From contig OX597828.1 in the NCBI GenBank assembly GCA_951406725.2, positions 63,612,001 to 63,676,000 of the forward strand: 64,000 nucleotides of DNA. The letters run 5' to 3'. This document shows positions 630-43,935 of this stretch, in pieces. The DNA comes from Octopus vulgaris (lineage: Eukaryota). Both the position numbers and the translations under genes were made by a program. Within the stretch, counting starts at the first letter, position 1; each line of letters starts with the position of its first letter. The notes beneath the pieces were generated by a model. The model saw only the letters and a program-made list of their open reading frames with translations, made no database searches and was not told the DNA's origin.

Positions 630-1025
630 TGTACTGTCGTTACTGTCCTGTTTTTTTACCATTTTTTTACCATTTTTTACCCCTCTGCGAAAAGATCTCA
701 GAATTTTAATTGATTTGCTTTTCGCAGGAAGGAAAGTTTCTTGTCGAAGATACGTCTCGCTTTTATCCTTCGAAACGTAGAGTAGATGAAACCTTAGCGA
801 CTGAAGAAGGGGTTTTTTCGTTGCGTTAATTGTCCTGTACTCCATTTTTTGTTGTTTTTAAAAAAATGTCCTGTTCCTTTGGTTTGTGTCTATGTTTTCG
901 TTTCTCTTTGTGTTCGACGTCCCTTTGGTGTCCTGTACTCATATATGCGTGTATATGTACATGTAGAGGTAGGTACGTACATATATGTTTATATATATGC
1001 ATATGTTTTATTTCATTTATTAATA
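630..1025 (+). mobile_element. Non-autonomous repeat carrying the permuted HHR (copy A)
   Basis: Homologous to 42975-43440 (-), 26931-27185, 27978-28235 and, more distantly, 55335-55625 (-). Flanked by (TA)n. Confidence 0.8.
751..812 (+). ncRNA. Candidate non-circularly permuted (pseudoknotted) hammerhead ribozyme, copy A
   Basis: TACGT-C-TCGCT (751-761) ... CCTTC-GAA-ACGTA (767-779) ... AGCGA-CTGAAGA-AGG (796-810). Stem III TACGT/ACGTA, stem I TCGCT/AGCGA, GUC triplet at 754-756. Confidence 0.7.
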
Positions 1026-26865: not shown

Positions 26866-26926
<61 letters not shown>

Positions 26927-26930
26927 ATAT

Positions 26931-27185
26931 AAACGTGGAGTAGACGAAACGGAGGCGGCTGAAGAAGGGGAACTTTCCTTGTGTCGTATGTCTTGTACCC
27001 TGTTTTTTCGTTGTTTAAAAAATGTCCGTTTCCATGGTTCTGTTTTTAGGTTTTCGTTTCTCATTGTGTTCGAAGTTTTTTTTGGGTGTCCTGTACCTAT
27101 ATATGCATGTATATATACATATAGATGTAGATACGTACATATATGTGTGTATATATGCATATGTTTTATTTATTATTTTGTTATT
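26931..27185 (+). mobile_element. 5'-truncated copy B of the permuted-HHR element (duplicate at 27978-28235)
   Basis: Starts at AAAC-gtggagtagacgaaacggaggcgg-CTGAAGA-AGGGG directly after (TA)n; the downstream sequence matches copy A. Confidence 0.75.
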
Positions 27186-27223
27186 ATATGACGAAACCCC
27201 ACGCATCCTCTTCCAAGTAAGTT

Positions 27224-27291
<68 letters not shown>

Positions 27292-27292
27292 A

Positions 27293-27353
<61 letters not shown>

Positions 27354-27400
27354 ATATATGTATGTATATATATATATATGTATATATGTATGTATATATG

Positions 27401-27586
<186 letters not shown>

Positions 27587-27816
27587 GCCACTGACCATTC
27601 AAAATACGACCATCAAGGCATTCCCAGATTTACCCACCCCCTCTCCACATCAGCCTTCTGCTTCTCCTACCCTACCAAGAACTCACAACGACCTCGAACA
27701 CACAAGTGCAAACAAGGGAGTCAGAGAAAGGCAGAATGCCACTTATATCTGAACACTACTATAGAAATATTCCTTTAAAAAAACTTTTCTTCTAATTTTT
27801 CTAAATTTAATTATTT

Positions 27817-27869
27817 AATCGTTACAGTTGAAAAGGTCTCAAAATGACCGAAACCGGTACTGAAAGATT
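27817..27869 (+). ncRNA. Minimal type I HHR, U3-A8 core variant (duplicate at 28863-28915)
   Basis: CAG-TTGAAAA-GGTC-tcaaaat-GACC-GAAAC-CG-GTA-CTG; palindromic stem III ACCGGT. Confidence 0.65.
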
Positions 27870-27920
27870 CACTATAAAATTATCTTAGCACTTTCTATTT
27901 TTGACTTGTTTTTTCATATA

Positions 27921-27973
<53 letters not shown>

Positions 27974-28273
27974 ATATAAACGTGGAGTAGACGAAACGGA
28001 GGCGGCTGAAGAAGGGGAACTTTCCTTGTGTCGTATGTCTTGTACCCTGTTTTTTCGTTGTTTAAAAAAATGTCCGTTTCCATGGTTCTGTTTTTAGGTT
28101 TTCGTTTCTCATTGTGTTCGAAGTTTTTTTTTGGGGTGTCCTGTACCTATATATGCATGTATATATACATATAGATGTAGATACGTACATATATGTGTGT
28201 ATATATGCATATGTTTTATTTATTATTTTGTTATTATATGACGAAACCCCACGCATCCTCTTCCAAGTAAGTT

Positions 28274-28337
<64 letters not shown>

Positions 28338-28340
28338 ATA

Positions 28341-28401
<61 letters not shown>

Positions 28402-28440
28402 ATATATGTATGTATATATATATATATGTATATATGTATG

Positions 28441-28493
<53 letters not shown>

Positions 28494-28502
28494 GTATATA
28501 TG

Positions 28503-28633
<131 letters not shown>

Positions 28634-28972
28634 CCACTGACCATTCAAAATACGACCATCAAGGCATTCCCAGATTTACCCACCCCCTCTCCACATCAGC
28701 CTTCTGCTTCTCCTACCCTACCAAGAACTCACAACGACCTCGAACACACAAGTGCAAACAAGGGAGTCAGAGAAAGGCAGAATGCCACTTATATCTGAAC
28801 ACTACTATAGAAATATTCCTTTAAAAAAACTTTTCTTCTAATTTTTCTAAATTTAATTATTTAATCGTTACAGTTGAAAAGGTCTCAAAATGACCGAAAC
28901 CGGTACTGAAAGATTCACTATAAAATTATCTTAGCACTTTCTATTTTTGACTTGTTTTTTCATATATATATG

Positions 28973-42942: not shown

Positions 42943-42974
<32 letters not shown>

Positions 42975-42976
<2 letters not shown>

Positions 42977-43440
42977 AATTAATAAATAAAATATATGCAT
43001 ACATACATACATATATGTACGTACCTACATCTACATGTATATATTCATGCATATATAAATATATATATATATATATATGTGAGTACAGGACACCACAAAT
43101 AGACGTAGAACTCAACGAGAAACGAAAACCTAAAAACAAACATGGAAACGGACTTTTTTTAACAACAAAAAAACAGTACAAGACAAACAATACAAGGAAA
43201 ATTTCCCTTCATCAGCTGTCCCTAGTTCGACTCCATGCGTGTTTCGAAGGTAAGGACAGAACACGACCCGTCGATTCAATCCTTCCTGCAAAAGAATTAA
43301 ATAAAATTCCTTTGCAGAGGGGTAAAAACAAGGAAAGAAAAAAATGTGACAAGAACAGGGCGTAAAAGCAATACAAATTAAATGCAATTACAAATAAAAA
43401 TACAAATACAAAATACAAATACAAAAAAATACAGTACACA
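42975..43440 (-). mobile_element. Non-autonomous repeat carrying the permuted HHR (copy C)
   Basis: Shares ttttacccctctgc...gcaggaagg, ttttcgtttctc and gtgtcctgtactca with 630-1025. Confidence 0.8.
43204..43265 (-). ncRNA. Candidate non-circularly permuted hammerhead, copy C
   Basis: Minus strand: CGTGT-T-CTGTCCTTA-CCTTC-GAA-ACACG-catggagtcgaac-TAGGGACAG-CTGATGA-AGGG. Stems I and III differ in sequence from copy A but still pair. Confidence 0.7.
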
Positions 43441-43935
43441 TAAAGAATAAAAACAGGATATATATATATCCAGTATCTCACAGAGCAATGTACACTCCTA
43501 AAAAATTTCAGTAAAATTGTCATTACACTGATAGTATCGAAGGAAATCAAAGTGGGAGGTAGTAATCCGGCTATTGGTCCATGAGAGACTGCTTTGATGA
43601 TCAATGTTACTATAATCTCAGAGCTTTCTACTAACATATCCGTGCATAGTCTTCTGCTCATATTGACTCATCCTTTCATCTGATGATACGTTGCCGTAGA
43701 ATCGTGGGACTTCTTTGGGCATGTATTCCAGGTTATCAGACAAAGAGTGTTGCCCAAGGAGCTGCCTTCTAAGTCCCATGATGTTATCAGCCCAATGTAT
43801 GCAAACTTGGTCAAGGGATGCACTTCGAAATTTGGTGGATTAAAGATGTTGCCGAAGAGATATGATACGACATTCAAAAGCAATTTGGATCAATATTCAG
43901 CTTCTTCCGCCTTGTTTTCGTTTTAGGTAGATGCA

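What the first reader, a model, noticed from the sequence alone, without database searches (positions are those of the whole stretch)
43204..43265. Second permuted-HHR copy with fully compensatory stems and almost no stem I-II linker
Canonical CUGAUGA and GAAA, a 5-bp stem III, and a 9-bp stem I (one G-U) running directly into CCTTC. Both helices differ from copy A at most positions yet still pair, which argues for selection on structure rather than chance. It is the best construct for a test.
Basis: seen in the sequence. Interest (0 to 1): 0.8.

Follow-up and report, generated by a model that had tools for sequence, protein, structure and literature searches.

The report
Scrambled hammerhead ribozyme in animal retroelements
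This is one worn copy of a jumping-DNA repeat that carries a self-cutting RNA motif with its pieces in a scrambled order, present thousands of times in this animal genome and apparently also in a retroelement group that was reported to lack such ribozymes; cutting itself is untested.

Summary
The motif is real (minus strand): hammerhead blocks in the non-circular order S-G-C, with stems I and III changed on both sides at 7 of 10 pairs against copy A. It is not a lone curiosity. It sits in a 5'-truncated copy (43458-42973) of a non-coding 780-900-nt Penelope-like repeat; four related families give 12,923 pattern matches in this genome, reversed controls 0. In 90 copies picked by a distant 3' anchor, 5' ends pile up 11-fold in the 26 nt after the predicted cut, as expected if cleavage makes the RNA 5' end. 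By eye, 17 of 53 published Naiad 3' ends carry such permuted hammerheads, although Naiads were reported to lack canonical ones. Cleavage is untested; no autonomous partner was found; this copy is degraded and a poor test construct.

The parts
42973..43458 (-). 5'-truncated solo copy of a non-coding Penelope-like repeat (covers unit positions 326-790 of a full unit, 91% identity), between (TA)n runs
   Evidence: blastn against unit in L282; flanks
43318..43322 (-). helix IV 5' strand (CCCCU)
   Evidence: pairs with strand after A9; 92% of cells paired in A1 but invariant there; different sequence in families C, D
43286..43317 (-). hairpin V (13 bp), directly between helix IV 5' strand and G10.1
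   Evidence: 4 of 7 counted pairs change on both sides; in MFE folds
43281..43285 (-). stem II 5' strand (GAAGG, G10.1 = 43285), upstream of the cut site
   Evidence: duplex -7.3 vs -2.6 kcal/mol for the downstream strand; covaries across families
43270..43279 (-). 5' strand of the helix linking stems I and II (pairs with 43231-43223); two mismatches in this copy
   Evidence: pair counts in 49 copies; private change at 43275
43260..43265 (-). block S, part 1: stem III 3' strand, U16.1 (43261), H17 = U (43260); predicted cut between 43260 and 43259
   Evidence: U16.1 in 20 of 20, H17 U 11 / C 6 / A 3 / G 0
43251..43259 (-). stem I 3' strand (6 bp core 43259-43254) plus UUA linker
43238..43250 (-). 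block G: stem II 3' strand CCUUC, GAAA, stem III 5' strand
43223..43231 (-). 3' strand of the stem I-II linking helix
43209..43221 (-). stem I 5' strand GGACAG and core CUGAUGA
43204..43208 (-). strand after A9: helix IV 3' strand (best reading) or weak alternative stem II strand; last base is a private change
679..812 (+). copy A: same layout with GUC site, younger subfamily (element 626-1025)
26958..27179 (+). family copy whose 5' end lies inside block G (no cut site)
28005..28229 (+). second copy truncated at the same place (local duplication)

Best explanation
The family encodes a self-cleaving hammerhead with a split core. Order on the RNA: helix IV 5' strand, hairpin V, stem II 5' strand, I-II linking strand, block S, block G, partner linking strand, stem I 5' strand with CUGAnGA, helix IV 3' strand. 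Helices IV and V stack end to end and bring A9 and G10.1 together although they are 70 nt apart in sequence; the linking helix holds stems I and II side by side, as the tested 'interaction' helix of type-SGC ribozymes does. It is a type-SGC ribozyme whose last segment has been moved to the front and re-opened between A9 and G10.1. It lies about 200-250 nt from the 3' end of a non-coding 780-900-nt Penelope-like unit; cleavage of tandem or read-through transcripts makes the RNA 5' end, and a Penelope-type reverse transcriptase acting in trans, starting near the unit's 3' end, often runs off at that end. SHOWN: sequence, copy numbers, covariation of stems I, III, V and the linking helix, family-to-family change of stems II and IV, tandem and inverted layout, (TA)n targets, pile-up of 5' ends after the site. 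INFERRED: the 3D stacking, catalysis, the RT and its source. This particular copy is probably a dead insertion.
For: Copy numbers 5,213, 6,583, 872 with up to 1 mismatch, 255, all controls 0. A1 (20 sequences): 93.7% of cells paired, 12 of 28 pairs change on both sides, 57 such cells vs 21.5 in shuffles, slid controls 35-50% paired. A2 (family C, 16 sequences): 92.1% paired, 8 of 51 pairs two-sided. Upstream stem II always begins with G10.1-C11.1 and differs by family: GAAGG/CCUUC, GAGCA/UGCUC, GGCUGG/UCAGCC, GACACC/GGUGUC; over 126 distinct core hits the upstream partner gives 4.9 Watson-Crick pairs on average, the downstream one 1.7, and in family C the downstream strand cannot pair at all. 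101 of those 126 also have helices IV and V; reversed loci give 0 hits. 5' ends: 29 of 71 copies at risk end at 0..+25 vs 2.6 expected (ratio 11, Poisson P 1e-20), with only 3 of 42 at -25..-1 (binomial P 1.5e-4) and 7 at +26..+75 where the structure's 3' edge lies; family C repeats it, 10 of 30 at -1..+10 vs 3 at -4..-100. Published Naiad consensus 3' ends show the same layout by eye in 11 of 53 (five phyla) and type CSG in 6 nematode ones; the Naiad_Ovul-type motif is in this genome. An unpaired nucleotide at this same link is known in active hammerheads (PMC4209133).
Against: No cleavage or probing data. Stems II and IV do not vary within family A/B, so says nothing on them; in family C stem II has no two-sided change. 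In families A/B and D a 4-bp downstream register survives with G-U pairs (3.8 of 4 paired in 16 full D copies); 7 of 22 D copies have a tail that pairs better downstream than in helix IV, and L327 fits the downstream register better. MFE folding of this copy gives a competing nested fold without stems II and III; copy A folds no better than shuffles (z -0.93). 5' ends are spread over 25 nt (median +11), the width of that window was chosen after seeing the data, and only chromosome C1 was sampled. Core letters were in the search patterns, so their invariance is partly circular; the copies are related, so counts are not independent. No autonomous partner found. The cross-phylum readings are by eye on consensus text. 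In another Penelope element the ribozyme needed protein and was dispensable for insertion in vitro (PMC11167929).
Confidence: 0.65

Rival explanations
1. Ordinary type-SGC hammerhead: stem II forms with the strand after A9 (extra A, then GGGG/CUUC); the upstream GAAGG and helix IV are an off-switch that is released or overridden during the cycle.
For: Keeps block C intact as in all tested hammerheads (PMC10085705); the downstream register is retained with G-U pairs in A/B and D and fits some D copies better.
Against: Impossible in family C and only 2 bp in the Naiad-type family; weaker by about 5 kcal/mol in this copy; the I-II linking helix follows the upstream strand, not the downstream one; change between A/B and D keeps three Watson-Crick swaps upstream.
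Confidence: 0.2
2. A hammerhead-derived structure that no longer cuts and is kept as a protein-binding site or a stop for the reverse transcriptase.
For: No activity data; spread of 5' ends over 25 nt; ribozyme dispensable for insertion in vitro in another Penelope element.
Against: H17 varies among U, C, A and is never G in 20, the rule for cleavage; ends do not pile up at the 3' edge of the structure (7 ends over +26..+75) but just after the site, with a sharp drop before it.
Confidence: 0.1
3. The blocks work only between tandem units or in dimers, rebuilding a classical type II or III junction from two copies.
For: Units occur in tandem (L354/L355); most metazoan Penelope hammerheads act as dimers (PMC4209133).
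Against: All partner strands lie within 120 nt of each other, stem III is a stable non-palindromic 5-7 bp, and hairpin V and the linking helix are local.
Confidence: 0.05

Closest known systems
Type-SGC hammerhead ribozymes (HRIMA-1 and variants; Eckert et al. 2023, PMC10085705)
   Same: Block order S-G-C; short (about 3-nt) link from stem I to stem II; a helix joining the other sides of stems I and II; full core.
   Different: There block C is assumed and drawn intact, and type SGC was found only in metatranscriptomes, none in genomes of known organisms. Here thousands of genomic copies in an animal retroelement, stem II 5' strand upstream of the cut site, two extra helices between A9 and G10.1; not tested.
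Naiad Penelope-like elements (Craig et al. 2021, PMC8557442)
   Same: (TA)n targets, partial tandems, inverted 5'-truncated copies; the same split-core layout is readable at the 3' end of Naiad_Obim and Naiad_Ovul and others; the authors noted core halves that fit no descriptor.
   Different: This family has no ORF and no sequence link to a Naiad ORF was found; the paper states Naiads lack canonical hammerheads and are only remnants in cephalopods, whereas copy A's subfamily is 99% alike.
Metazoan non-LTR retrozymes and Penelope pLTR minimal hammerheads (PMC4209133; bioRxiv 10.64898/2026.07.22.740005)
   Same: Non-coding tandem units with one hammerhead per unit, likely moved by Penelope-type enzymes.
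   Different: Those carry type I motifs with weak or palindromic stem III that work as dimers; here a pseudoknotted monomer-type layout that Rfam misses even at E 10.
Hammerhead variants with additional helices (cited to Weinberg et al. 2015 in PMC13725137)
   Same: Extra helices are known in some variants.
   Different: Could not be compared: the paper is not held; where those helices sit is not known to me from any call.

Membership tests
Hammerhead ribozyme | Core C3U4G5A6N7G8A9, G12A13A14, A15.1-U16.1 | tested here: met
   U16.1 (not in the search pattern) 20 of 20
Hammerhead ribozyme | H17 not G | tested here: met
   U 11, C 6, A 3, G 0 of 20; C in 16 of 16 family C
Hammerhead ribozyme | Stems I and III next to the core, kept by compensatory change | tested here: met
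   5 of 6 and 3 of 5 pairs two-sided; 2 of 6 and 2 of 5 in family C
Hammerhead ribozyme | Stem II opened by G10.1-C11.1 | tested here: met
   met with the upstream strand in four families
Hammerhead ribozyme | Site-specific self-cleavage after H17 | not testable with these tools
   only indirect: pile-up of insertion 5' ends
Hammerhead ribozyme | Match to an Rfam hammerhead model | tested here: not met
   none at gathering or at E up to 10; expected for a pseudoknotted order
Type-SGC hammerhead (Eckert 2023) | Block order S, G, C | tested here: met
   definition
Type-SGC hammerhead (Eckert 2023) | Block C intact: stem II strand within 1-2 nt of A9 | tested here: inconclusive
   possible but weak in A/B and D, impossible in C; upstream strand favoured
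Type-SGC hammerhead (Eckert 2023) | Helix joining the other sides of stems I and II | tested here: met
   43279-43270 with 43231-43223, if stem II uses the upstream strand; two-sided changes
Naiad Penelope-like element | ORF with N-terminal GIY-YIG and C-terminal RT | tested here: not met
   no such ORF in the unit or in the loci scanned
Naiad Penelope-like element | (TA)n targets, partial tandem and inverted 5'-truncated copies | tested here: met
Naiad Penelope-like element | Sequence link of this family to a Naiad (shared pLTR or 3' end) | tested here: inconclusive
   same RNA layout, different sequence; only broken Naiad ORF pieces found in this genome
Metazoan non-LTR retrozyme | Non-coding tandem units, one ribozyme each | tested here: met
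   L354/L355 units about 790-830 nt apart; 905 nt in copy A family
Metazoan non-LTR retrozyme | Type I hammerhead | tested here: not met
   order is S-G-C
Metazoan non-LTR retrozyme | Circular RNA monomers | not testable with these tools
   only contigs available

The most novel reading that the evidence does not exclude
A hammerhead topology outside the six published block orders, with the CUGAnGA block cut away from stem II and re-closed by two stacked helices, is an active ribozyme, occurs in over ten thousand copies in this genome and across at least five animal phyla, and together with type-CSG motifs in nematodes is the missing ribozyme of the Naiad clade; it fixes the RNA 5' end used in Penelope-type retrotransposition.
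Probability: 0.55. Interest if true: 0.88.

Novelty: new variant of a known kind. Interest (0 to 1): 0.8.

Why it matters
Non-circular hammerheads were known from metatranscriptome and metagenome contigs of unknown hosts, with type CSG from two sequences. A large animal retroelement family would give them a host, a job and deep natural variation. A break at A9-G10.1 would show the core tolerates a fourth arm, which no current descriptor or Rfam model looks for, so many genomic ribozymes may be uncounted. It would also reverse the published statement that Naiads lack hammerheads, and the pile-up of insertion ends offers in vivo evidence on what Penelope ribozymes do, an open question. All of it is testable with short in vitro transcripts.

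Tried and rejected
Rfam: no hammerhead model at gathering or E up to 10. Autonomous partner: the 30 GIY-YIG loci read were C-terminal-endonuclease elements (one host gene) with no S-G-C motif; Naiad-like ORF hits were short broken pieces; no RT frame beside family copies in L001-L100, L161-L190, L333-L362. One search used the wrong side of L023 and returned an unrelated repeat. Expression: no RNA holder listed; the four runs laid were contigs, which cannot show ends or levels, so the fall in depth upstream of the site is not used. Metagenome scan: 119 matches, none with stems I and III, used only as a negative control. One search had an off-by-one error and was replaced. 5' ends beyond about -150 reflect subfamily divergence from the references and were not used. 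The linking helix was left out because MAFFT shifts its register between subfamilies. The 9-bp stem I was rejected as the family fold. Earlier findings: nothing for this genome or sequence. Three papers were not held.

Full report
OBSERVATION. The motif lies on the minus strand. Copy A (751-812, +) has the same order with a GUC site, and 7 of 10 pairs of stems I and III are changed on both sides. This is the type-SGC order of Eckert et al. (PMC10085705; I read parts 2-6 of 8 of the text and supplement search hits only). Rfam has no match.

IT IS A REPEAT FAMILY. The own genome is 2.8 Gb; from its size and its match to the published Naiad_Ovul motif I infer an octopus. The pattern for blocks G and C has 5,213 exact matches, reversed control 0. 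Of the first 90 matches on contig C1, 55 carry stems I and III (most others are 5'-truncated), against 0 of 119 metagenome matches. Three more families with the same order turned up: C (6,583 matches), D (872 with up to one mismatch) and the Naiad type (255); the counts include truncated copies. The finding's family is a non-coding unit of about 780-900 nt in head-to-tail tandems, with inverted 5'-truncated copies and (TA)n targets, the layout of Penelope-like elements. The window copy covers 43458-42973, lacks the first 325 nt of the unit and is 91% identical to it.

CCUUC pairs perfectly with GAAGG at 43285-43281, giving the canonical G10.1-C11.1 pair (-7.3 kcal/mol, against -2.6 with the strand after A9). 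The strand after A9 pairs with CCCCU at 43322-43318 (helix IV), and a 13-bp hairpin V fills the gap between that strand and G10.1. The strand after GAAGG pairs with the strand before stem I; this is the position of the 'interaction' helix that was needed for cleavage in type SGC, and it holds that position only if stem II uses the upstream strand. On a MAFFT alignment of 20 copies, 93.7% of cells pair and 12 of 28 pairs change on both sides (stem I 5 of 6, stem III 3 of 5, hairpin V 4 of 7); stems II and IV do not vary there and so carry no signal. They vary between families: four different upstream stem II pairs, each starting G-C; over 126 distinct core hits in 1.04 Mb of motif-selected loci the upstream partner averages 4.9 Watson-Crick pairs and the downstream one 1.7, 101 have helices IV and V, and reversed loci give 0 hits. 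In family C the downstream strand cannot pair with stem II at all, and helix IV is 14 bp. Against this: in A/B and D a 4-bp downstream register survives with G-U pairs, 7 of 22 D copies have a tail that suits it better than helix IV, and L327 favours it, so a two-state switch is possible. MFE folds of this copy lack stems II and III. The 9-bp stem I is not the family fold: its ninth pair is Watson-Crick in 15 of 49 copies while that base covaries in the linking helix (G-C 23, A-U 11).

A FOOTPRINT OF CUTTING. I took the first 90 of 1,936 copies found by a 28-nt anchor about 150 nt downstream of the site and mapped 5' ends by local alignment to 18 full references. Of 71 copies reaching +25, 29 end at 0..+25 (2.6 expected from the flanks, ratio 11, P 1e-20); 3 of 42 end at -25..-1; 7 end at +26..+75, where a polymerase stalled by the structure would stop. 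Family C repeats this: 10 of 30 at -1..+10, 3 at -4..-100. The edge at 0 was predicted by the fold; the 25-nt width was chosen afterwards, ends are uncertain by a few bases, and only C1 was sampled. This is indirect evidence.

NAIADS. Craig et al. report that Naiads lack canonical hammerheads but note core halves that fit no descriptor (PMC8557442, passages and supplement metadata; preprint passages). I read the last 420 or so bases of 53 of the 54 Naiad consensus sequences from search excerpts, by eye only. Eleven show the split-core S-G-C layout (Bfor with a 2-bp stem I, Amil, Aacu, Anas, 3_Chem, 2_Movir, Plae with IV and V out of view, EuTe, Obim, Ovul, Esco with an imperfect stem II; five phyla, three Acropora entries near-identical), six nematode ones show type CSG with canonical stems (1/2/3_Nbra, Hcon, Hpol, Asuum), five have unclear cores, and 31 show no such motif in the stretch seen. 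The split form is a circular permutation of CSG or SGC re-opened at A9-G10.1. I found no sequence link between the finding's family and a Naiad ORF; Naiad ORFs in this genome were broken pieces, so the driver is unknown.

MECHANISM. Most likely the ribozyme cuts tandem or read-through transcripts, the cut sets the RNA 5' end, and a Penelope-type RT working in trans from near the unit's 3' end (internal initiation is shown for another element, PMC11167929 passages) runs off 0-25 nt short of it; longer insertions come from uncut or re-joined RNA. That paper also found its ribozyme protein-assisted, dispensable for insertion in vitro and without RNA-seq ends at the site.

THIS COPY. It is a solo truncated insertion with GUU at the site, a weakened helix IV and linking helix (changes at 43204 and 43275 that nearly all laid relatives lack). 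It is a poor construct, and 43204-43265 omits the upstream strands.

WHAT IS IN PRINT. Ten searches found no report of non-circular hammerheads in animal genomes or Naiads; the library lacks most subscription papers. Eckert et al. found none in genomes of known organisms bar one weak GCS candidate. A 2026 retrozyme preprint uses type I models only (passages). An unpaired base at the A9-stem II link is known (PMC4209133 passages). Variants with additional helices are cited in PMC13725137 (passages and references), but that source was not held and PMC10162972 and PMC6765202 passages did not describe them, so the split-core claim is unchecked against it. Hammerhead numbering is from my own knowledge. 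Verdict: new variant of a known kind; interest 0.8.

Noticed in passing
PMC8557442 supplement File S5: Naiads without a permuted hammerhead often end in one of two other recurring motifs: one resembling twister (1_Movir, 4_Chem, Mgal, Bpla, Mphi, Scon, Mmer) and one resembling HDV-like ribozymes (CGi, Sglo, Olur, Tgra, Pmar, Skow, Pfla, 1/2_Chem). Family names are recalled, not tested; Naiads may swap ribozyme classes.
   Followed up: no
window 1826(-), 2082(+), 6705(+), 33614(+), 38008(-)/38017(+), 41103(+), 57512(+): Several ordinary Penelope-type type I or minimal hammerhead motifs, some as inverted pairs; none reaches an Rfam threshold.
   Followed up: no
window 43082-43094 and 1810-1822: The 3' part of the finding's repeat shares a 13-nt word with stem II of a different type I hammerhead repeat, in opposite orientation; a similar word recurs about 90 nt upstream in the unit.
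   Followed up: no
L482-L511: Family C (6,583 matches) has an AUC site, a 14-bp helix IV and no possible downstream stem II: the cleanest test construct for the split core.
   Followed up: partly
L047 minus strand near 2396: A further diverged S-G-C-like copy with its own stems, possibly a fifth family.
   Followed up: no
L257, L262 and others: Many young Penelope-type elements with open 781-784-aa frames and C-terminal GIY-YIG; candidates for the enzyme that moves the non-coding families.
   Followed up: partly
L283-L301: An AT-rich repeat family with a type I hammerhead, long stem II and palindromic stem III.
   Followed up: no
window 26900-28900: A local duplication of about 1,047 nt that includes a truncated family copy.
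   Followed up: no
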